DNA from: a virus
Strand: one strand, 5' to 3'
Length of the DNA: 64,000 bases
IMG/VR virus record: IMGVR_UViG_3300028025_003904
Location: 1-64,000 of that record
Below the pieces are notes generated by a model that made no database searches, was not told the origin of the DNA, and saw nothing but the letters and a program-made list of their open reading frames with translations. Positions within the stretch are counted from its first letter, which is position 1. The number at the start of each line of letters is the position of its first letter. Positions 28,475-54,009 of this stretch are shown here, piece by piece. The position numbers and the translations under genes are program-made.

Positions 28475-28506
28475 CAAATATAAGTATTTTCTTTTATAAT
28501 TCCAAA
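28475..28506 (-). promoter_or_regulatory. Bacteroidota-type promoter inside the tRNA array
   Basis: TTTG-N20-TATATTTG. Confidence 0.75.
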
Positions 28507-29545: not shown

Positions 29546-29577
29546 CAAATATACAAAATATATTTTATATTTCCAAA
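29546..29577 (-). promoter_or_regulatory. Bacteroidota-type promoter
   Basis: TTTG-N20-TATATTTG. Confidence 0.75.
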
Positions 29578-31794
29578 TTATTCTACATATTTTGTCCAAC
29601 TATCTACATTGAAACATCCCCCACAATCGGATTTTTTTTGTAATAATTTTTGAACACTTTGAACTTTAATTTCTAATAAATTTGGATTATTGTAAGTATA
29701 TAATCTATCTATGAAAATAGATGGTAATCCTTTAATATTTAAATATCTTAAATTATTATTCCAAACTAAAAACCAACTTAAAAGTGGATTTCTTGTACAA
29801 TCTAACGATTCAATTTTATTATCATGTACCCAAAGTCCTTTAATCATTGGGTTTCCACTCAAATTTAACGATGTCAATCTGTTGTTTTGCATATACAGTT
29901 GTTGTAGGTTTGGATTGTGAGTTATATCAATTGATGTTACACCACGAGTTGTTCCATATCCAGCTCTACCTTCTGTATTACCAAAATCCAATTCAATTAA
30001 ATTTTTATTTCTGGAAACATCAAATGTTACTATATCATTATCACCTGCTCCAAAATATTCTAACTTTGATAGGGAACTCACATCAATACTTGTCAATTTA
30101 TTATCCCAAAAGGAAACCCAAGTTAAGTTTAGATTTTTGGATAAATCAACACTACTAATTTGATTGTGAATAATCCGTAATCTTTGTAGATTTGGGAATG
30201 CTTCTATACCCCTAATACTTACAATACCCATAGGGTTTAGTATTTCTATGGTAGTTGCGTTTGCAATTGGTGCAGTTTTAATCCTACCATCCAATACAAA
30301 ATCGTATCCTCTATCAATCAATGCCTGCTCAAATCTACTATCAGGTACACTAATATATTCTGGCAAATTGGATACCAATGGTGGCGGTGTTGTTACAACT
30401 GGTCCGGGTACAAATGTTGTTGGTGGTGGTGTTGTTACAACTGGTTCAGGTACAAATGTTGTTGGTGGTGGTGATGGTATAGTAGGTATAGATACTATTG
30501 GAGCTGGTGGGGGTGTATCATCTAAAGTTCTGAAATTTCGTTCATTACCATAAACTATACCCTTTGAGTTTATACAATATGCTCTAATATAGTATGTTGA
30601 ATTGGGTATCAGTTCATTTACATCTACCATATATCCACCCAAACCATTTCCTACTATAAGTTTTCTATCTGAAATTGTAGGTGTTTTCTCTCTACTAATT
30701 ACTACACCTCTTTCAGTTACGGGTGTGTTACCTTCGTTTGTAACCTCACCACCAATTCTTGCACTCCTAAATGAGATATTCCCAATATCGTTGGTAGATA
30801 TTTTGGCAAACGTATAATCTATTGTTGAGAAATTTATTTCATCACCATATACAATACCTGCTTCATTTTGAGCATATGCTCTTACATAGTATTTGGTATT
30901 TACCTCCAATTTAGTAACTACAATTTTATATTCACCCAAATCAGTAACTGATGATTTGAATTTCATATTATCAATGGTTGGTTTTGGAGATTTGGATACA
31001 ACTATTCCTCGTTCCTTTAATTCCCCTCTACCTAAATCTTTCACATTACCACTTAATGTTGCTACATCCAATCCAATATCAGTTGCTGAATTTGTTTGGA
31101 TTGTTGGTAATTTGTAATCTAATGTTGAAAATGTGAGCTCTTTACCATAGGATGTACCCATAATGTTGGTAGCAAAGGCACGAACATTGTATTTTGTACC
31201 TGCTTTAAGTTTGATTACAACTAAATTGAATGCACCCATCCCTTCACCTGCATTAAATGTACTATCGGTAGTTGTGGGTGTTGGGTTGGTACTAATGCAA
31301 AATCCTCGCTTTAATATAGGTGTTTCACCATCATCTGTAATATTACCGTATAGTTTTACCGATGTTAATGTTATATTACCCAAACTATCGGTTGTTAAAG
31401 TTGGTAAAATATAATCACCCGTTGTAAAGTTCTTTAATTCACCATAAGCAGTACCATATTTATTTTTGGCGTATGCATTATAGTAATAGGTTTTATTTGG
31501 TGTTAGTTTGGTTAGATGTGATTTAAATGTTGTAATATTTGTATCCAATTTAATGGTAATACCATATCCACCAATATCCGGATTATTTGCGTAAATAAAT
31601 CCACGTTCAATTGTAGGTGCATAAGGTACATCCTCTACTTTACCCAAAATAAATGCCGATTTAAGTGTAACGTTGGTTGCATCCTCTGTGAATACAGATG
31701 GTGGCATATCAATGATTGCTGGTGTTAGTGCTTCTTCCTTTGCACAACCTAATAATAGGAAAATACCTATTAGAGTGATTTGTAACTTTTTCAT
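29578..31794 (-). CDS. Surface lipoprotein: four Fn3-like repeats, Pro-rich linker, leucine-rich repeats
   Basis: Lipobox LLGC; four L.P.T.Y..RAYA.N..G..YG repeats; PPPTTFVP.PVVTT twice; N.L..LD.S.N..L LRRs; own promoter at ~31819-31849. Confidence 0.85.
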   Translation of the reverse strand: MKKLQITLIGIFLLLGCAKEEALTPAIIDMPPSVFTEDATNVTLKSAFILGKVEDVPYAPTIERGFIYANNPDIGGYGITIKLDTNITTFKSHLTKLTPNKTYYYNAYAKNKYGTAYGELKNFTTGDYILPTLTTDSLGNITLTSVKLYGNITDDGETPILKRGFCISTNPTPTTTDSTFNAGEGMGAFNLVVIKLKAGTKYNVRAFATNIMGTSYGKELTFSTLDYKLPTIQTNSATDIGLDVATLSGNVKDLGRGELKERGIVVSKSPKPTIDNMKFKSSVTDLGEYKIVVTKLEVNTKYYVRAYAQNEAGIVYGDEINFSTIDYTFAKISTNDIGNISFRSARIGGEVTNEGNTPVTERGVVISREKTPTISDRKLIVGNGLGGYMVDVNELIPNSTYYIRAYCINSKGIVYGNERNFRTLDDTPPPAPIVSIPTIPSPPPTTFVPEPVVTTPPPTTFVPGPVVTTPPPLVSNLPEYISVPDSRFEQALIDRGYDFVLDGRIKTAPIANATTIEILNPMGIVSIRGIEAFPNLQRLRIIHNQISSVDLSKNLNLTWVSFWDNKLTSIDVSSLSKLEYFGAGDNDIVTFDVSRNKNLIELDFGNTEGRAGYGTTRGVTSIDITHNPNLQQLYMQNNRLTSLNLSGNPMIKGLWVHDNKIESLDCTRNPLLSWFLVWNNNLRYLNIKGLPSIFIDRLYTYNNPNLLEIKVQSVQKLLQKKSDCGGCFNVDSWTKYVE

Positions 31795-31948: not shown

Positions 31949-32025
31949 TGGGGTGTTTAATGGGATTCGAACCCATACTATCAGTACCACAAACTGACGT
32001 GCTGACCATTAACACTATAAACAAC
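31949..32025 (-). tRNA. tRNA-His(GTG), CCA encoded
   Basis: TCAGT-TTGTGGT-ACTGA; G-1/C73. Confidence 0.9.
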
Positions 32026-32026
32026 G

Positions 32027-32099
32027 AGGTGAATATTGGATTCGAACCAATGTAAAAGGTTTTGCAGACCTCTACCTAAACCAACTCGGTCAATTCACC
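32027..32099 (-). tRNA. tRNA-Cys(GCA)
   Basis: GAGGT-CTGCAAA-ACCTT; U73. Confidence 0.92.
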
Positions 32100-32105
32100 A
32101 TTATG

Positions 32106-32177
32106 TAGTTCCATAGAGACTCGAACTCCAACTTTGACATCCGTAGTGTCAGGTGCTATCCATTACACCATAGAACT
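32106..32177 (-). tRNA. tRNA-Arg(ACG)
   Basis: TGACA-CTACGGA-TGTCA. Confidence 0.92.
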
Positions 32178-32182
32178 ATTAG

Positions 32183-32253
32183 CACGTCCTAAAGGATTCG
32201 AACCTCTATCATCGCTTTTGGAGAGCGGTATGCTACCATTACACCAAGGACAT
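32183..32253 (-). tRNA. tRNA-Trp(CCA)
   Basis: CCGCT-CTCCAAA-AGCGA; G73. Confidence 0.9.
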
Positions 32254-32323
32254 GTATTTATTTCCAAAGTAAAAAATTACCTTCAAAAAATTTTCCAACC
32301 TTTATCTAAAAGTTGAAAAAGTG

Positions 32324-32397
32324 TAGAGAAAATAGGACTCGAACCTATAACCCCCGACGTATCAGGTCGGTGCTCTAACCAATTGAGCTATATCTCT
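32324..32397 (-). tRNA. tRNA-Ile(GAT)
   Basis: CCGAC-CTGATAC-GTCGG. Confidence 0.92.
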
Positions 32398-32400
32398 GTG

Positions 32401-32473
32401 TAGGGTGAGCGAGACTCGAACTCACATCCTCTTGCTCCCAAAGCAAGTAATCTAACCATTGATATACCACCCT
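32401..32473 (-). tRNA. tRNA-Pro(TGG)
   Basis: CTTGC-TTTGGGA-GCAAG. Confidence 0.9.
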
Positions 32474-32479
32474 ATATTG

Positions 32480-32552
32480 TGAACCCGTTGGGAATCGAAC
32501 CCAAAACCCCTACATTAAAAGTGTAGTGCTCTACCAATTGAGCTACGAGTTC
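32480..32552 (-). tRNA. tRNA-Lys(TTT)
   Basis: CTACA-CTTTTAA-TGTAG. Confidence 0.93.
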
Positions 32553-32554
32553 AT

Positions 32555-32631
32555 TGGTGGAGCAGACAGGTATCGAACCTGTTCCTCTGGATTTTCAGTC
32601 CAGCGCAATGAACCTCATCTGCCACTGCTCC
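32555..32631 (-). tRNA. tRNA-Phe(GAA), CCA encoded
   Basis: CTGGA-CTGAAAA-TCCAG. Confidence 0.9.
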
Positions 32632-32671
32632 TTTAAATCCGATTTTGATATGTAGCATCGGGAACTACCTG

Positions 32672-32745
32672 TGTCCATAGTAGGATTCGAACCTACACAA
32701 TCTGGTTTCTAAAACCAGCACGGTTGCCAATTACGTCATACGGAC
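32672..32745 (-). tRNA. tRNA-Leu(TAG) lacking the long variable arm
   Basis: CTGGT-TTTAGAA-ACCAG; 5-nt variable loop; A73. Confidence 0.82.
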
Positions 32746-32753
32746 TTCTATTG

Positions 32754-32826
32754 TAGTGAGTGAGGGACTTGAACCCCCAACATCCGCCATGTAAAGACGG
32801 CGCTCTGCCAATTGAGCTAACCCACT
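32754..32826 (-). tRNA. tRNA-Val(TAC)
   Basis: CCGTC-TTTACAT-GGCGG. Confidence 0.92.
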
Positions 32827-32837
32827 ATTTCACCATT

Positions 32838-32850
32838 ATGTCAAAGAACT
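32838..32850 (-). promoter_or_regulatory. boxA-like antitermination element
   Basis: AGTTCTTTGACAT; similar elements at 34041-34053 (TGTTCTTTAAAAT) and 35568-35580 (CGTTATTTGAAAT). Confidence 0.6.
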
Positions 32851-32858
32851 TATTCTTG

Positions 32859-32930
32859 CGTTGATGGTAGGATTCGAACCTACGACCAATAGATTAACAG
32901 TCTACTGCGCTACCACTGCGCCACATCAAC
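32859..32930 (-). tRNA. tRNA-Asn(GTT)
   Basis: GTAGA-CTGTTAA-TCTAT; G73. Confidence 0.93.
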
Positions 32931-32944
32931 TTATTTTTAAACAT

Positions 32945-32976
32945 AAAAAAACCCCTAACTTTTTGGGTCAGGGGTT
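32945..32976 (-). terminator. Intrinsic terminator (attenuator) immediately upstream of the tRNA block
   Basis: AACCCCTGAC-CCAAAAA-GTTAGGGGTT-TTTTT. Confidence 0.85.
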
Positions 32977-33003
32977 GTTTTAATTTAAGTATGTAGTTTG
33001 GTT

Positions 33004-33147
33004 TTATCCCAAGTCTACATCGTTTAATATTGTTGCCCCTAACTGATTTTTAATTCCTTTCGAACTAAAATCACACACGCGATTGCCTGCCCACATCAAA
33101 TTTGATGTCGGTTGATAAGCTATCGTATGTAGGTTAAGAGTTTTCAT
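33004..33147 (-). CDS. Putative attenuator leader peptide (47 aa, codon sampler)
   Basis: MKTLNLHTIAYQPTSNLMWAGNRVCDFSSKGIKNQLGATILNDVDLG; A-rich upstream context; contains a second copy of the terminator 3' arm (33036-33044). Confidence 0.7.
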   Translation of the reverse strand: MKTLNLHTIAYQPTSNLMWAGNRVCDFSSKGIKNQLGATILNDVDLG

Positions 33148-33197
33148 TTCTTTATTTATAATAATATATATGTAATTTTTTTATTTTAAGTTAAAAA

Positions 33198-34037
33198 GAT
33201 ACGGATGAGAATACTCACGTATGCGAACCGGCTTTCGTTGGATTATTGTTTCCCAACTTTTCCACTACCTTTTGGGTAGTACCGATTCAATGCGGGTTAG
33301 TTAAGCCAACCACTCATAAAGTTACAAACTACTCTCTCTTTACTCCGCTTCTTCTACTCTGCCGAACAGATTCACACTTGCGGTGTTAGAAGTTTTTCGA
33401 AAGAATCACAGACCTCTTGCGGAGGTATCGTGGCAAGGAACAACTCCCTACTATGTACGCACCTTTCGTTTGCAACTGACGAACACTTTTGCTCTTTTTG
33501 TTTATAGTTTGCACTAACCGGCAAATTGAGTTTGGTTTGTAGATGGTTTCAAGTAGTGGTTCGCCAACCTGCTCCGTTATCTTTTGAACAACAGAATACT
33601 GAACTACTCGATGTGTTATCCCTAACACCATACTTTAAGTTTGCTTCATAACTCCTACCTTGGTAGGTGAAGAGTAAGGATAATAACGACACCACTCGTA
33701 CTTTATCTTACCTTTCGGTTTTAAGTAAACTCTGATATTGAATCACGCAATTGTTGAAAGGGATTAAGTTTCAGTTTCTCGCAATAACTCTATGGATTAT
33801 TCTTATTGGTGTTCCCACCTCAACTGAACTATCTACTTTAGCCCAGTCATTTCACCACCCTCTTTACAGTGTTACCCTCAATACTAAAGGTGAAATGATA
33901 TTCCACTTGCCTACTCAAGCTCCTTTCGAAGCCGCAAATCACTTAAACCAAATGATTCACTTTATCCTACTTTCGTAGTTTATTTCACGACCATAGGCGG
34001 CCGATGTACACTATGTAGAACTCGTCTACTATGTGCT
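33198..34037 (-). ncRNA. Giant structured ncRNA (~840 nt), GOLLD-like
   Basis: No credible ORF; GC above background; many GNRA-capped hairpins; own promoter and boxA upstream; next to a tRNA array. Family call is from size and context only. Confidence 0.65.
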
Positions 34038-34159
34038 TATATTTTAAAGAACATTTTTAATTTGATTAACCGAGTATCTTTCATCACCTATTGGTCTCAA
34101 ATCTATAATACAAATATACGAAACTTTTTTCATATATCCAAAAACTTTTTAACTTTTTT

Positions 34160-34255
34160 TTAAGATTGGTTGTCTCCGGCTTTTTAGCTTACCACTTATG
34201 GTTGGGCTTCACACATTCGGTTTTATTAGATGTTGGCTTCAACAACCATTCTTAA
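34160..34255 (-). ncRNA. Candidate small ncRNA (~95 nt)
   Basis: Closing stem TTAAGA-A-TGGTTGT/ACAACCA-A-TCTTAA; repeated TGAAGCC; downstream of a promoter with no ORF. Confidence 0.5.
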
Positions 34256-34398
34256 ATATTGGATGAGTAGTGGGATGGTATTTCTACCTCTCGGGTCCTC
34301 TTAACACCGGACTTCTCCACACCGGCATACTAACCTCATTTTCAACATTACAAATATACGAAACTTTTTTCATATATCAAAGTCTTTTTAACTTTTTT

Positions 34399-34944
34399 TT
34401 ACAAATTTCTTTTTGATATTTGAAAGTTAAACGATACCGTCATTCTTTCTGTATCAGCTGGTTCAACATAATGTGATAGTGTAGATGGAAAAAATAATAA
34501 TCTACCTTTAACTGATGGTATTTTATGTTTTCTCCCCTCTTTACAGAATACAGTATTAGATGTTGAATCCGATAGATACCATATACCAGAAATTAAATCG
34601 TTACCATGTGAGTGATACTCTTGATACTTTCCGTCTTTATAGTAATTCCACCATATCTCATAATCATATCTAAACTTTTCACCAAAATTATACGTTTTTA
34701 TATAAAATGGATGCAATTGAACAATACTCGTTACGTGTTCTATAATCTCATTTACATATGGTGTACCATATAACAAATCACTATTATGATTAAACGATGA
34801 AAAAGCACCACCATCCCAACTTTTTGGAGATGTATATTTTTCTGGCTCATTTTTTATTTCTTTTTTAATACCTTCAATCAATTCATCCGGTACTTCCAAA
34901 TGTGTATCGAATAAAGTAATTGGAAATATATTAAATTCGTTCAT
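34399..34944 (-). CDS. 2OG-Fe(II) oxygenase-like (TIGR02466-type)
   Basis: WWN..YHSH..ISGIWY..FFPS.L.H.V..R.TVSFN. Confidence 0.85.
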   Translation of the reverse strand: MNEFNIFPITLFDTHLEVPDELIEGIKKEIKNEPEKYTSPKSWDGGAFSSFNHNSDLLYGTPYVNEIIEHVTSIVQLHPFYIKTYNFGEKFRYDYEIWWNYYKDGKYQEYHSHGNDLISGIWYLSDSTSNTVFCKEGRKHKIPSVKGRLLFFPSTLSHYVEPADTERMTVSFNFQISKRNL

Positions 34945-35014
34945 CTACTATCAAAATGTTTTTACAAATATACGAAACTTTTTTCATATATCCAAATGAT
35001 TTCTCATTTATTTT

Positions 35015-35089: not shown

Positions 35090-35155
35090 ATTTATTATGA
35101 TACAAATATACGAAACTTTTTTCATATATCCAAATGATTTCTCATTTATTTTTTG

Positions 35156-35565
35156 TGGAGATGCAGGGATTCGAACCCTGGTCCAGATAAGTTTCTAATG
35201 TAAATCGTTCACAAGTTTATTCAATTTTTCTAAACTGAAAAAATATAGAGTTTCTATTTTGCCATTATCACTCTCAACTGTGGAAGATTCACTTTAGTAG
35301 GTAGAACCTCAAACGAGACCTTATTCCTTTTTGGGTAGAAATCACACCTGGGTTCACATTCTTTTTTACCTCATGATGTGTACGAGGAAGATTAGGCAGC
35401 TACTGCGTAATCGAATGAGTTCATCCATGCCATAGCATCTTCGAACGTCATTGTAGATAATTCTACGTTTGCACTTATTGTTTGATAGGTCTTCAAAGGT
35501 TTCCATCTAACCTTACTTGCATCAATACAACCAGTCTTCATATCTGTCAAAAGCCGGTCATCCCC
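35156..35565 (-). ncRNA. ssrA: tmRNA
   Basis: 5' GGGGATGACCGG..TTGAC, 3' GACCAGGGTTCGAATCCCTGCATCTCCA; G3:U; tag frame 35472-35392 ending YAVAA*. Confidence 0.92.
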
Positions 35566-35634
35566 ATATTTCAAATAACGTTTACAAATATACGAAACTT
35601 TTTTCGTAATTCCAAATAATATATATCTTTTTTT

Positions 35635-36171
35635 TTATTTTACGTTCCGTTTTGATAATTGAAAATTAAACGCTACTGTCATTCTTTCATCATCCGATGG
35701 TTCTACATAATGTGGTAGGTAAGATGGGAAGAAAACTATTTTACCTTTCGTTGGTAAAACTTTGTGTTTAAGACCCCTATCACAAAATACAGTATGTGCA
35801 TTTGAATCATTCAAATACCAAACTCCAGAAAGTATATTGTTAGCATGACTATGGTATTCTTGATACTTTCCTGCGGTATAATAATTCCACCACATATTAT
35901 ATTCATAAATAAAATTATCACCAAATCCATTGTAAGGTGGTGTAGTTTTAACTATTTCTATAACATTATTTATTATTTGATTGTGCTCTTTAGTACCATA
36001 TAATAGTTTGCTTTCATAATTAAAAGATGAATATACACCACCATCCCAATCAATTGGAGTATCATATTTAGTATCATCTTTTATATCTTCTCTAATACCA
36101 TCAGTTAAAGAATCTGGAACTTCTATATAATTCTCAAATATTCTTATTGGAAAAATATCAATACTTTGCAT
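35635..36171 (-). CDS. 2OG-Fe(II) oxygenase-like, paralog of 34399-34944
   Basis: Shared IFPI, WDGG, GKYQEYHSH and HYVEP motifs. Confidence 0.85.
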   Translation of the reverse strand: MQSIDIFPIRIFENYIEVPDSLTDGIREDIKDDTKYDTPIDWDGGVYSSFNYESKLLYGTKEHNQIINNVIEIVKTTPPYNGFGDNFIYEYNMWWNYYTAGKYQEYHSHANNILSGVWYLNDSNAHTVFCDRGLKHKVLPTKGKIVFFPSYLPHYVEPSDDERMTVAFNFQLSKRNVK

Positions 36172-52473: not shown

Positions 52474-54009
52474 TTAATTGAGGATAATTTTATTTGTTTT
52501 AATTAACTCAATTAAATCTTCATGAGAATATGCAAGTGTTTCTGCATAGTTTATATCATTATCGTATTTCATAAACCAATTTGCCAATTTATTATCTAAA
52601 TCGTATTCTTCATTTTCACGTTTATATACTGATTTATCAATTATCCCATTACCAGTTGCAACTAAAAACCAACTATAATCTTCAAATTGTGTAAACATAT
52701 TATCAGTATCCATAGTATTTGGTGTTCTCCGTTTCCAACTATCTAATCTACGTTTCATTTTTGGAGATAAAGTAGTTGTTTTTTGGTAATCTTTCCAAAA
52801 ATCAGTATCATTTCTATCGGTAAAATAATGAAATTGTAAAAAATCAGTTGTTGTTTCACAAGTATCTGAAATTAATGTGTTGTAATCATACATTTCATCT
52901 TCGTGCATATTGTGAATGTGGTCAGATGATAAATTCCGTAATTGTGTTATTATTAACCAAATAGATGTTGCTTCAATTGGTTCGGTAAAAGTAGAACTTA
53001 ATCCAATTGCTATACAATTTTTAACCCAAGATGTAACATATCTTCCAGCATCGAATGGTATAACTTTATTGATTTTTATTTCCTGTCCTACCATTTCTTC
53101 AACCTCTTTCTTTGCTTCTTCTACACTAATATATTTATCATCGAATACATACCCACATCCCCATCTATTTTGTAAAGGTATTTGCCACATCCAACCATAT
53201 TTCATTGCTACTGCTTTAGTATATGGTGGTAGAGTATCTGATTTTGGTAAAAAGAATGGTATTGCTTTACTTACTTTTAATTTGTCTTTATATGATTTCC
53301 ATTCTACGCCAAAGTGTTTTCCAATAAACAAACGATTAAATCCAGTACAATCAAAAACAAAATCTGTTTTAATTTCAATATCATCACATTTAATTGAACC
53401 AATACCACCATTTTCATTAGATATAATATCAGTTATTTTACCTTCTATTCTTTTTATACCACGTTCTTCGGCTTTCATTCTTAAAAATTTAGCCAATAAA
53501 CTTGCATCAAAGTGGTAACTGTAATTTGAAACAAAACTTACTTTATCATTTTCTTTTATAAATGGAGATTTATTACCATATGCTAGTTTAGAAACCAAAT
53601 TAACATCACCAATTGTTTCTTCGTTTGCAATAGCATTTATATATGCGTATTGTTGTCCATTATCTGGCAATCCAGCTACTAATGTATTTTTTGATGGTGT
53701 AAAATTATAAGGACTTAAATTAGAATCTGAAACTTTAAAGTTGTGCATATATTTTTTACCATCACCTCTCCAATTTTCAAAACTAATACCCATTTTAAAA
53801 GTAGCATTTGTATATTGTATCAGTTCATTTTCACTAATACCCAATGCATATAATATCCAAGGTAGTTGTGGAGTAGAACCTTCACCTGCTCCCAATATAC
53901 CAATATCTTCACTTTCTACAAGTGTTATATTATCTTTTGGGCATATGAGTTGTGCATATAATGCAGTCAACCATCCAGCAGTTCCACCACCAGCTACTAC
54001 TATTTCCAT
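52474..54009 (-). CDS. Flavin-dependent tryptophan-halogenase-family protein
   Basis: GGGTAGW, GAGEGS, ATFKMGI.F.NW, DCTGF, GWMWQIPL, F.EP.EAT. Confidence 0.9.
   Translation of the reverse strand: MEIVVAGGGTAGWLTALYAQLICPKDNITLVESEDIGILGAGEGSTPQLPWILYALGISENELIQYTNATFKMGISFENWRGDGKKYMHNFKVSDSNLSPYNFTPSKNTLVAGLPDNGQQYAYINAIANEETIGDVNLVSKLAYGNKSPFIKENDKVSFVSNYSYHFDASLLAKFLRMKAEERGIKRIEGKITDIISNENGGIGSIKCDDIEIKTDFVFDCTGFNRLFIGKHFGVEWKSYKDKLKVSKAIPFFLPKSDTLPPYTKAVAMKYGWMWQIPLQNRWGCGYVFDDKYISVEEAKKEVEEMVGQEIKINKVIPFDAGRYVTSWVKNCIAIGLSSTFTEPIEATSIWLIITQLRNLSSDHIHNMHEDEMYDYNTLISDTCETTTDFLQFHYFTDRNDTDFWKDYQKTTTLSPKMKRRLDSWKRRTPNTMDTDNMFTQFEDYSWFLVATGNGIIDKSVYKRENEEYDLDNKLANWFMKYDNDINYAETLAYSHEDLIELIKTNKIILN

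What the first reader, a model, noticed from the sequence alone, without database searches (positions are those of the whole stretch)
32945..33147. Codon-sampler leader peptide plus terminator/antiterminator: a candidate pan-tRNA-depletion sensor gating the phage tRNA operon
Seen: a 47-codon ORF (33147-33004) below the ORF-track cutoff sits just upstream of a strong terminator (32945-32976), which is followed by 12 tRNA genes. Its first 17 codons are all different. The first 29 contain 27 distinct codons and 19 of 20 amino acids (only Glu absent), including GC-rich codons (ACG, CCG, CGC, GGC, GTG, TCG) in an AT-rich genome. After codon 37, 8 of 10 codons are repeats. Codons 35-38 carry AGTTAGGGG, a 9-nt copy of the terminator 3' arm, which can pair with the 5' arm CCCCTGAC. 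That pairing encloses an inner hairpin (ATGTAG..TTGG/CCAA..CTACAT) with the stop codon in its loop. Established: trp/his-type attenuators couple ribosome stalling to antitermination but use runs of one or a few amino acids; host anticodon nucleases such as PrrC deplete tRNAs during infection. Inference: stalling at almost any codon leaves the antiterminator free and turns on phage tRNAs, while a ribosome reaching the stop favours termination. I know of no described attenuator of this kind.
Basis: partly seen in the sequence, partly recalled or inferred. Interest (0 to 1): 0.93.

Follow-up and report, generated by a model that had tools for sequence, protein, structure and literature searches.

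The report
All-amino-acid leader attenuator before phage tRNAs
A lake-water phage places its tRNA genes behind a tiny gene that uses nearly every amino acid and is wired to a switchable transcription stop, so it probably makes its own tRNAs only when ribosomes run short of any one of them.

Summary
The 47-codon ORF (33147-33004, minus strand) lies between a GOLLD RNA (33202-33611) and a terminator that abuts 11 tRNA genes. I first judged the ORF fortuitous: close relatives showed one premature stop and no protein-level constraint. Divergent relatives reversed that. Twenty distinct loci keep an ORF of 38-53 codons, and indels inside it are almost all in frame. Of 120 listed protein-cluster representatives (146 hits), 114 contain all 20 amino acids. 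In windows of 43-53 residues of the phage's own proteins the rate is 0.3-1.6%. The single Cys codon moves among 7 alignment columns and is lost once in 110 sequences. Upstream of segment B the ORFs cover 21-23 of the 23 codon boxes read by the window's 23 tRNA species. Four segments give three mutually exclusive helices, A:B, B:C and C:D, each with compensatory changes. Truncated transcripts fold in the order A:B, then B:C, then mostly A:B plus C:D, as in the trp attenuator. Translation, polarity, promoter and host are untested. My searches found no published description. The nearest case is the Anabaena tRNA operon, which is controlled by a repressor. Earlier notes of this scan describe the same family on other DNA.

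The parts
34111..34142 (-). Promoter-like repeat (TTTG-N20-TAnnTTTG) ahead of the GOLLD RNA. It is the nearest such site upstream of the leader.
   Evidence: 18 matches in the window against 4.39 expected, and 0 of 100 shuffles reach 18. No match lies between 33200 and 31949.
33202..33611 (-). Conserved 3' domain of GOLLD RNA (Rfam RF02032). The variable 5' part probably extends to about 34100.
   Evidence: 296.7 bits (gathering score 150), E 1.5e-84, full model 1-416. RNA-library contigs of 4 runs cover it.
33148..33201 (-). AT-rich spacer before the start codon, without a Shine-Dalgarno-like word. It may hold a promoter, or it may simply be the 5' untranslated region.
   Evidence: One search gives the sequences; 0 of 21 distinct leaders have an SD-like 4-mer at -20..-1, and mean AT there is 88%.
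33004..33147 (-). Leader ORF of 47 codons plus the stop. It holds 19 amino-acid types here and 20 in most relatives.
33133..33141 (-). Segment A (ACTCTTAAC, codons 3-5). It pairs with B as an anti-antiterminator, or with D.
   Evidence: A:B is in the minimum-energy fold of transcripts ending after B in 19 of 19 loci; 152 of 160 cells pair, with C-G/T-A exchange at pair 6.
33046..33128 (-). Three internal hairpins inside the ORF.
   Evidence: The hairpin at alignment A2 columns 47-55/60-68 has 2 compensatory pairs in L007.
33036..33044 (-). Segment B (AGTTAGGGG, codons 35-38). It is the 5' strand of the antiterminator and a copy of D.
   Evidence: B:C pairs in 98.5% of 136 cells, 2 pairs (9 cells) changed on both sides, and 0 of 500 shuffles reach this.
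32991..33020 (-). Hairpin between B and C with the stop codon (33006-33004) in its loop.
   Evidence: a predicted hairpin encloses the stop codon in 20 of 20 distinct loci. These are weak hairpins, and no chance control was run.
32967..32976 (-). Segment C (AACCCCTGAC). It pairs with either B or D.
32945..32960 (-). Segment D (AGTTAGGGG) and the run of 7 T. Together with C this forms the intrinsic terminator.
   Evidence: C:D pairs in 100% of 140 cells, 3 pairs changed on both sides.
31949..32930 (-). First tRNA block of 11 genes (Asn, Val, Leu-TAG, Phe, Lys, Pro, Ile, Trp, Arg-ACG, Cys, His). It starts 14 nt after the T run.
   Evidence: One search finds no promoter-like match inside the block.

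Best explanation
The element is a ribosome-mediated (leader-peptide) transcription attenuator that gates a phage tRNA array. Its leader ORF carries codons for essentially all amino acids instead of a run of one.

Shown by sequence comparison:
- A conserved short ORF.
- Four segments, A, B, C and D, that form three mutually exclusive helices.
- An intrinsic terminator (C:D plus a U run) that abuts the first tRNA gene.
- Selection that keeps at least one codon for every amino acid upstream of B.

Inferred by analogy with the trp attenuator:
- With no ribosome, or after a ribosome has finished the ORF, A pairs with B. C then pairs with D and transcription stops.
- A ribosome stalled at any codon from the start to about four codons before B keeps A and B apart. 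B pairs with C, the terminator cannot form, and RNA polymerase reads into the tRNA genes.
- A shortage of any charged tRNA would therefore switch on the phage's own tRNA supply. Possible causes are a mismatch between phage codon usage and the host tRNA pool, starvation, loss of host tRNAs during infection, or host tRNA-cleaving defences.
For: 1. ORF conservation. 20 distinct loci carry an ORF of 38-53 codons starting MKTL. A 21st, L169, has 39 codons. Gap runs inside the ORF are 3, 3 and 6 nt in long forms and 2, 3, 3, 9 and 12 nt in short forms. Downstream they are 1-7 nt.

2. Family size. 146 proteins match at E <= 0.01 among 177 candidates. None has a Pfam domain, and any name given is 'hypothetical'. 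There is no PHROG match.

3. Amino-acid composition.
- 114 of the 120 listed representatives hold all 20 amino acids, 5 hold 19 and 1 holds 17.
- In the phage's 86 long ORFs, all 20 occur in 103 of 29,546 windows of 43 aa, 227 of 29,202 of 47 aa and 462 of 28,686 of 53 aa. They occur in 0 of 128 small ATG ORFs.
- L169 has all 20 in 39 residues. Only 32 of 29,890 windows of 39 aa do so.

4. Relocation of rare residues.
- In the main subfamily 108 of 110 sequences have all 20. Column shuffles give a mean of 72.0 (sd 3.8, maximum 84), and 0 of 2000 reach 108.
- Sequences lacking Cys: 1 observed against 23.0 expected. Lacking Gln: 0 against 8.4.
- Cys in column 10 versus Cys elsewhere gives counts of 55, 15, 1 and 39 (Fisher p 3e-16, not corrected for ancestry).
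- On the tree the Cys configuration changes at least 31 times, while presence of any Cys changes once.

5. Codon boxes. 21-23 of the 23 boxes, which match the window's 23 tRNA species, lie upstream of B in 19 of 19 loci. The tail adds none. An internal Met codon is present in 19 of 19. In real genes, 34-codon windows reach 21 or more boxes in 24 of 30,320 cases and 22 or more in 0. Windows of 42 and 45 codons reach all 23 in 5 of 29,632 and 11 of 29,374.

6. Helices.
- B:C pairs in 98.5% of 136 cells, with 9 cells changed on both sides.
- C:D pairs in 100% of 140 cells, with 5 such cells.
- Over 20 loci the paired cells are A:B 152 of 160, C:B 158 of 160 and C:D 160 of 160. Slid registers pair in 29-67%.
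- L166 changed the same helix position in all four segments.

7. Folding order of truncated transcripts. Transcripts ending after B give A:B in 19 of 19. Those ending after C give B:C in 18 of 19. Those running through D plus U give A:B with C:D in 12 of 19.

8. Context. In 35 of 35 locus rows the ORF is followed by tRNA genes (3-25 within the sequence fetched). The first tRNA starts 63-76 nt after the stop in 33 rows. GOLLD lies 55-980 nt upstream in 32 rows. No promoter-like site lies between the leader and the first tRNA block.

9. Transcript hint. One contig from an RNA library spans 32905-33200, across the terminator. This is weak, because DNA can be present in such libraries.
Against: - There is no direct evidence of translation or of regulated read-through.
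- One relative (L128) has TGG changed to TAG at codon 19. P0115 has a frameshifted tail and P0064 reads on to 68 residues.
- This window's own ORF lacks Glu and an AGR Arg codon.
- In the 43-47-codon forms Glu sits at codon 33, only 2 codons before B. On the recalled ribosome footprint, a ribosome stalled there should mask B.
- Among close relatives the codon changes are mostly non-synonymous: 7 against 2 in L007.
- The ancestry-controlled test of Cys relocation had only 3 supported pairs and was not significant, p 0.25-1.
- In L141 the B:C helix has an A.C mismatch and A:B persists.
- In 7 of 19 loci, this window included, the full-length minimum-energy fold is B:C plus A:D, not the terminator form. 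Here the values are -62.7 against -59.6 kcal/mol.
- In the window B ends 28 nt before the stop, so a terminating ribosome would not cover it.
- The promoter and the host are unknown.
Confidence: 0.75

Rival explanations
1. The hardware is the same, but it senses something else. The attenuator would report overall translation rate or ribosome-polymerase coupling, for example after host shut-off or as a timing or feedback device for tRNA dosage. It would not report a shortage of an individual tRNA, and the polarity could even be the reverse.
For: The 43-47-codon forms place Glu too close to B to act as a sensing codon. The window form lacks Glu altogether. From recall, the E. coli pyrBI attenuator uses a 44-residue leader without codon runs.
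Against: A pure coupling sensor needs no particular composition. Yet 114 of 120 representatives keep all 20 amino acids, and rare residues relocate rather than vanish. All codon boxes lie upstream of B.
Confidence: 0.12
2. The ORF encodes a small functional protein, and the hairpin is only its terminator. The complementarities among A, B, C and D would have no regulatory role.
For: The peptide has conserved blocks: M1 K2 T3 H7 T8 W19 G21 are invariant in 17 sequences. The family is large.
Against: - B lies inside the coding sequence and changes its amino acid (Gly, Glu or Arg) in step with C.
- A, B, C and D changed together in L166.
- Composition is maintained while positions shift.
- The ORF always sits 63-92 nt before a tRNA, or 159 nt in L149 where the Asn tRNA was not called.
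- It has no Pfam or PHROG family.
Confidence: 0.05
3. The region is a structured non-coding RNA, or a 5' leader of the tRNA precursor, and its open frame is fortuitous and untranslated.
For: The fold is very stable, z -7.15. The known GOLLD RNA next door also contains an 81-codon ATG ORF. L128 has a premature stop.
Against: The frame stays open across lineages with as little as 32-45% peptide identity. Indels in it are almost all in frame, while the flank has indels of 1-7 nt. 118 of the 120 listed representatives are intact forms of 43-54 residues. The all-20 composition has no explanation for an untranslated RNA.
Confidence: 0.05
4. The leader binds tRNA or a small molecule directly, like a T-box or a riboswitch, without a ribosome.
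For: It has a terminator/antiterminator pair and lies next to translation genes.
Against: No Rfam family matches apart from a sub-threshold Thr_leader hit on the terminator, 25.8 bits against a gathering score of 55. ORF conservation and composition would remain unexplained.
Confidence: 0.03

Closest known systems
Leader-peptide attenuators of amino-acid operons (trpL, hisL, leuL, pheL; the multivalent thr and ilvGMEDA leaders). Their features are recalled from textbook knowledge.
   Same: A short translated leader and four RNA segments that form 1:2, 2:3 and 3:4 helices. An intrinsic terminator lies directly before the regulated genes. Predicted transcripts fold in the same order.
   Different: Those leaders carry runs of one to three amino acids and control biosynthetic genes. 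This leader carries about one codon for each of the 20 amino acids. It controls tRNA genes, it is phage-borne, and its stop codon lies between segments 2 and 3.
E. coli pheST attenuator (pheM leader) and the pyrBI attenuator (44-residue leader). Both are recalled; no paper was read.
   Same: pheST shows leader-peptide attenuation acting on a gene of the translation apparatus. pyrBI shows a long leader without a codon run.
   Different: pheM senses Phe only. pyrBI senses UTP through polymerase pausing, and its ORF runs through the terminator. Here the ORF ends 24-32 nt before C.
Anabaena sp. PCC 7120 trn operon (long tRNA array induced by translational stress). Sources: PMC8421152, passages read, and PMC10272220, abstract read.
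   Same: A horizontally spread array of about 23-26 tRNA genes is kept silent and switched on when translation is impaired.
   Different: Control there is at the promoter, through direct repeats bound by the repressor TrcR. The words 'attenuat', 'leader' and 'terminator' occur 0 times in the main text of PMC8421152.
T-box leaders (recalled).
   Same: Read-through of a terminator depends on tRNA charging, and the regulated genes serve translation.
   Different: T-boxes bind one uncharged tRNA directly and need no ORF. No T-box hit was found here.
GOLLD RNA next to tRNA islands. Sources: bioRxiv 10.1101/2024.12.08.627333, passages read, and PMC6582537, passages read.
   Same: The association of GOLLD with phage tRNA clusters is known and is seen here.
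   Different: Neither set of passages mentions a leader ORF or an attenuator. The module is separable from GOLLD: a protein gene lies between them in L125/L158.

Membership tests
Ribosome-mediated (leader-peptide) transcription attenuators | A short ORF in the leader, upstream of the regulated genes and conserved as an open frame | tested here: met
   ORFs of 38-53 codons in 20 distinct loci, plus L169. Indels are almost all in frame. 146 family proteins were found.
Ribosome-mediated (leader-peptide) transcription attenuators | An intrinsic terminator (hairpin plus U run) between the ORF and the regulated genes | tested here: met
   for the window. C:D pairs in 100% of 140 cells with covariation. 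The first tRNA starts 63-76 nt after the stop in 33 of 35 rows.
Ribosome-mediated (leader-peptide) transcription attenuators | An antiterminator helix that is mutually exclusive with the terminator | tested here: met
   B:C pairs in 98.5% of 136 cells, with 9 cells changed on both sides and 0 of 500 shuffles reaching this. B:C forms in 18 of 19 transcripts that end at C.
Ribosome-mediated (leader-peptide) transcription attenuators | An anti-antiterminator (segment 1) that overlaps the translated region | tested here: met
   A:B pairs in 152 of 160 cells with C-G/T-A exchange. It is in the minimum-energy fold in 19 of 19 transcripts that end after B.
Ribosome-mediated (leader-peptide) transcription attenuators | Regulatory codons: a run or cluster of codons for the amino acid(s) that are sensed | tested here: not met
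   There is no run. Instead there is about one codon for each of the 20 amino acids, and 21-23 of 23 boxes lie upstream of B. This is the feature that makes it a variant.
Ribosome-mediated (leader-peptide) transcription attenuators | Ribosome stalling changes read-through | not testable with these tools
   This needs reporter, Term-seq, Ribo-seq or in-vitro coupled assays.
Rfam Thr_leader (RF00506) | A score at or above the gathering threshold | tested here: not met
   25.8 bits against 55, E 0.27, and the hit covers only the terminator at 32943-33007.
GOLLD RNA (RF02032), tested as a possible 3' extension of it | The region is covered by the model or is always contiguous with it | tested here: not met
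   The model ends at 33202. tRNA-like genes or a protein gene lie between GOLLD and the module in L004, L125 and L158.

The most novel reading that the evidence does not exclude
This would be a general translation-capacity meter used by a widespread group of large freshwater phages as a counter-defence switch. Loss of any one host tRNA, for example through a host anticodon nuclease or a tRNA-cleaving defence system, stalls the ribosome on the matching codon of the all-amino-acid leader. That releases the phage's full replacement tRNA set. The GOLLD RNA always found upstream would be part of the same functional unit.
Probability: 0.25. Interest if true: 0.95.

Novelty: new variant of a known kind. 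Interest (0 to 1): 0.86.

Why it matters
Leader-peptide attenuation is a textbook mechanism, but it is known as a sensor of one or a few amino acids that controls their biosynthesis. This element would extend it to a sensor of the whole aminoacyl-tRNA pool.

It would also give the first cis-regulatory logic for phage tRNA arrays. How their expression is controlled, and what they are for, is still debated: codon compensation, replacement of degraded host tRNAs, or escape from tRNA-targeting defences.

The family offers a natural experiment. Evolution has kept one codon per amino acid in 38-54 codons and has moved codons rather than lose them.

It also supplies a compact, portable part that could report shortage of any tRNA. 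Finally, it ties the unexplained GOLLD RNA to a defined regulatory unit.

Tried and rejected
1. First working reading: the ORF is a fortuitous frame inside a structured RNA.
- It rested on the close relatives only (alignment A2, 96% identity).
- I dropped it when the tRNA-Lys probe and the ORF-start pattern brought in divergent relatives.

2. RNA-library contigs.
- The bins over the ORF (32979-33109) had depths of 1.8, 0, 6 and 0 in the four runs. The GOLLD bins had hundreds to thousands.
- These are contigs, so missing or low cover is no evidence about expression, and I draw nothing from it.

3. The search for related loci with the neighbouring 2OG-oxygenase-like protein found no relative.

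4. Downstream of 38 more distant GOLLD loci, few had tRNAs within 700 nt and none had the module. The module is therefore confined to one GOLLD-bearing phage group among the loci I held.

5. Technical failures.
- In one search my terminator finder misparsed 2 of 19 loci (L142, L151). Their segments were taken by pattern instead.
- MAFFT misaligned segment B between short and long forms in A4. I therefore counted pairs on A5 and by anchored register.
This report is the same text with that field added.

6. The ancestry-controlled sign test for Cys relocation was underpowered: 3 pairs on supported branches.

7. Host.
- The DnaB-like helicase is nearest to an uncultured phage (43%), Microcystis phage Mel-JY01 (42%) and Flavobacterium phages (35%).
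- One module-bearing 1.6-kb contig is binned in a Cyanobium MAG but has 38% GC.
- The promoter-like repeats fit the Bacteroidota consensus, which I recalled.
- I leave the host open.

8. No record in the cultured-phage collection encodes the peptide: tblastn at E <= 0.1 found no match for two queries.

9. Literature searches that found no description of such a leader. Supplementary files of papers were closed and may hold annotations that I could not see.

10. Not used: structure prediction, complex prediction, build_rna_model, the search of protein representatives and the protein-atlas search.
Full report
WHAT IS AT THE SITE

On the minus strand the window holds, in order:
- a promoter-like repeat at 34111-34142;
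- a GOLLD RNA whose conserved 3' domain matches Rfam RF02032 end to end at 33202-33611 (296.7 bits, E 1.5e-84);
- a 54-nt AT-rich spacer;
- the 47-codon ORF at 33147-33004;
- a hairpin with the stop codon in its loop;
- a terminator-like hairpin at 32976-32950 followed by seven T;
- 14 nt later, tRNA-Asn, the first of 11 tightly packed tRNA genes at 32930-31949.

Twelve further tRNA genes and a tmRNA lie nearby. The genome is a 120-kb virus record estimated 66% complete.

THE OBSERVATION

For the window's ORF alone the codon diversity is nominally unusual.
- Among 90 comparable small ATG ORFs in the window, only 2, 2 and 1 (the ORF itself included) reach the run of 17 distinct codons, the 27 of 29 distinct codons and the 19 amino acids.
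- The corresponding fractions are 0.012, 0.0003 and 0.0011 under the genome's codon usage.
- None of 807 stop-free windows of 29 triplets in the neighbouring structured RNAs reaches 19 amino acids.

The cut-offs were chosen after looking, so on its own this would not have convinced me. The region folds far better than shuffles (z -7.15).

A FALSE START

The first relatives I found were about 96% identical (L004-L007, L125 and four metagenome contigs).
- Codon changes were mostly non-synonymous: 7 against 2 in L007.
- Three of those changes were compensatory within one hairpin.
- One contig (L128) had TGG changed to TAG at codon 19.

I therefore leaned towards a structured RNA whose open frame was an accident. 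In L125 a protein gene separates GOLLD from the module, so the module travels with the tRNA array and is not a part of GOLLD.

THE TURN

tRNA-Lys is identical between the window and L007. Used as a probe, it retrieved two much more divergent contigs. Both carry, between GOLLD and tRNA-Asn, an ORF that begins with the same eight residues and is followed by a terminator.

A degenerate pattern from the ORF start found 18 viral contigs of 43-289 kb. A peptide-based scan added three more, and a genome-collection scan added one.

- In 35 of 35 locus rows (several contigs were fetched twice) the ORF is followed by tRNA genes, 3-25 within the sequence fetched.
- The first tRNA begins 63-76 nt after the stop in 33 rows.
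- GOLLD lies 55-980 nt upstream on the same strand in 32 rows. The other three rows had little upstream sequence.

THE ORF IS MAINTAINED AS A CODING FRAME

Across 17 aligned peptides, identity to the window's falls to 32-45%. Even so, every one of 20 distinct DNA versions is open for 38-53 codons.
- Gap runs inside the ORF are 3, 3 and 6 nt in the long forms.
- They are 2, 3, 3, 9 and 12 nt in the short forms.
- The non-coding flank has runs of 1-7 nt.

A profile search of 5.8 billion proteins found 146 members at E <= 0.01 among 177 candidates. None has a Pfam domain or a name other than 'hypothetical'. Four representatives match no PHROG family.

THE ORF IS MAINTAINED AS A SAMPLER OF ALL AMINO ACIDS

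Of the 120 listed cluster representatives, 114 contain all 20 amino acids in 43-54 residues. Five contain 19 and one, with a frameshifted tail, contains 17.

In the phage's own long proteins, all 20 occur in 0.35%, 0.78% and 1.6% of windows of 43, 47 and 53 residues. They occur in none of 128 small ATG ORFs. Even random draws from the family's own flatter composition give only 1-5%. The shortest versions hold 19 types in 38 residues (L166) and 20 in 39 (L169). Only 32 of 29,890 windows of 39 residues hold all 20.

The property is kept by moving residues, not by freezing them.
- In the main subfamily 108 of 110 sequences have all 20, after I dropped P0064 and P0115 and left out 8 members of the short-form subfamily.
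- Shuffling residues within alignment columns gives a mean of 72.0 and a maximum of 84 in 2000 trials.
- The usually single Cys occupies 7 different columns. It is absent from 1 sequence, against 23.0 expected if columns were independent. Gln is absent from 0 against 8.4 expected.
- Of the 40 sequences without Cys at column 10, 39 have one elsewhere.
- Shared ancestry inflates such numbers. The ancestry-controlled sign test had only 3 supported pairs and was not significant.
- On the poorly resolved tree the Cys configuration changes at least 31 times, while presence of any Cys changes once.

At codon level, 21-23 of the 23 decoding boxes that correspond to the window's 23 tRNA species lie upstream of segment B in all 19 loci examined. 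The tail adds none, and an internal Met codon is always present. In real genes, 34-codon windows reach 22 boxes in 0 of 30,320 cases. Windows of 42-45 codons reach all 23 in 5 of 29,632 to 11 of 29,374 cases.

THE RNA SWITCH

Four segments recur:
- A, in codons 3-5;
- B, three codons near the end of the ORF;
- C and D, the two arms of the terminator.

B and D are near-copies, and both are complementary to C and to A. All three competing helices covary.
- On alignment A5 (17 sequences) B:C pairs in 98.5% of 136 cells, with two pairs and nine cells changed on both sides. No shuffle out of 500 reaches this.
- C:D pairs in 100% of 140 cells, with three such pairs.
- By anchored register over 20 distinct loci, A:B pairs in 152 of 160 cells, C:B in 158 of 160 and C:D in 160 of 160. 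Registers slid by one or two positions pair in 29-67%.
- The variants are telling. B reads GTTAGGGG, GTTAGAGG or GTTAAGGG according to whether C reads CCCCTAAC, CCTCTAAC or CCCTTAAC, and this changes the encoded residue among Gly, Glu and Arg.
- In L166 the same helix position switched in all four segments together.

Minimum-energy folds of growing transcripts behave like the trp leader.
- Ending just after B, A:B forms in 19 of 19.
- Ending at C, B:C forms in 18 of 19.
- Through D and the U run, A:B plus C:D forms in 12 of 19. In the other 7, this window included, B:C plus A:D forms.
- In the window the two states differ by 3.1 kcal/mol.

The stop codon lies inside a predicted hairpin between B and C in 20 of 20 loci. 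These hairpins are weak and I ran no chance control. B ends 13 nt before the stop in the ten long forms, 16-18 nt in the 43-44-codon forms and 27-28 nt in the window type.

MECHANISM (INFERRED)

No promoter-like site lies between the leader and the first tRNA block, and the U run ends 14 nt before tRNA-Asn. Those 11 tRNAs can therefore be made only by reading through the terminator.

By analogy with trp:
- An untranslated or fully translated leader lets A pair with B and C pair with D, which terminates transcription.
- A ribosome held anywhere between the start and about four codons before B keeps A and B apart. B then pairs with C and transcription continues.

In the long forms the last amino-acid types to appear, Asp and Tyr at codons 40-41, lie 4-5 codons before B. 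That is just outside a ribosome's leading edge, whose size I recall rather than measured. In the short forms Glu at codon 33 is too close to B, and the window lacks Glu altogether. Coverage there is effectively 19 amino acids.

What stalls the ribosome in nature is open. Candidates are a mismatch between phage codon usage and the host tRNA pool, starvation, loss of host tRNAs during infection, or tRNA-cleaving defences.

OTHER EVIDENCE

In four freshwater metatranscriptome runs from four studies, contigs cover GOLLD.
- One contig (X15 record 1, 33108-33424, a relative with 20 differences) joins the GOLLD 3' end to the start of the ORF.
- One contig (X17 record 18, 32905-33200, depth 5.7) crosses the terminator by 40 nt.

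Both fit co-transcription and some read-through, but DNA can be present in RNA libraries.

No leader has a Shine-Dalgarno-like word in the 20 nt before the start, and that stretch is 88% A+T. The promoter-like repeats match the consensus I recall for Bacteroidota. The host remains open.

COMPARISON WITH WHAT IS KNOWN

The association of GOLLD with phage tRNA islands is published (passages read). I found no paper that describes a leader ORF or attenuator before phage tRNA genes.

The nearest biological parallel is the Anabaena trn operon, a tRNA array induced by translational stress. It is controlled by the repressor TrcR at its promoter.

The element meets the structural criteria of a leader-peptide attenuator but not the criterion of a codon run. 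I therefore class it as a new variant of a known kind.

Earlier notes of this scan describe the same family, and codon-matched relatives, on other DNA. They are AI notes, and I do not count them as evidence.

VERDICT

- Observation: confirmed.
- First reading: supported, with the corrections given above.
- Confidence that this is a translated, all-amino-acid leader attenuator gating the tRNA block: about 0.75. Confidence in the stated polarity is somewhat lower.

Noticed in passing
window 34111-34142, 34351-34381, 34965-34996, 35103-35134, 35585-35616 (-): Five near-identical 32-nt promoter-like repeats (TTTG, 19-20 nt, TAnnTTTG). They stand ahead of GOLLD, an unassigned small RNA, a 2OG-oxygenase-like gene and the tmRNA. 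The pattern has 18 matches in the window against 4.39 expected.
   Followed up: partly
window 34170-34345 (-): A stretch of about 180 nt without an ORF lies behind one of the promoter-like repeats. It has no Rfam match. An RNA-library contig covers 34109-34377 (X19 record 32). It may be a new small structured RNA.
   Followed up: no
window 33202-34026 (-): GOLLD RNA is covered by RNA-library contigs at summed depths of hundreds to thousands in four freshwater metatranscriptome runs from four studies.
   Followed up: partly
window 35155-35565 (-): A phage-encoded tmRNA with a predicted 26-residue tag. Relatives carry similar ones.
   Followed up: no
window 29578-31794 (-): A 738-residue FN3/LRR-repeat protein gene splits the tRNA array into two blocks. 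In L125 the array is continuous. The second block has promoter-like sites of its own at 29546-29577 and 28475-28506.
   Followed up: partly
window 34399-34944 and 35635-36171 (-); L125 13990-14520: Paralogous genes for 2OG-Fe(II) oxygenase-like proteins (for the first). In L125/L158 a protein gene that I took by eye to be a homologue sits between GOLLD and the leader.
   Followed up: no
window 52474-54009 (-): A full-length tryptophan halogenase gene (Pfam PF04820, E 1.1e-110) in a phage genome.
   Followed up: no
L004 7861-8010; L141 10087-10233; L007 6178-6249: One or two degenerate tRNA-like units (Gly-TCC and one with an odd anticodon loop) lie directly after the GOLLD 3' end and before the leader in some relatives. 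They are absent from the window.
   Followed up: no
L169 (1.6-kb contig of a MAG labelled Cyanobium): The contig carries GOLLD, a 39-codon leader with all 20 amino acids, and tRNA-Asn, Val and Tyr. At 38% GC it is probably a phage fragment binned with the MAG.
   Followed up: partly
L002, L003 (GenBank LR745206, LR756502; 635-642 kb uncultured phages): These megaphages carry GOLLD with a tRNA 10 nt or 190 nt downstream, but the leader module was not detected in the fetched loci.
   Followed up: partly
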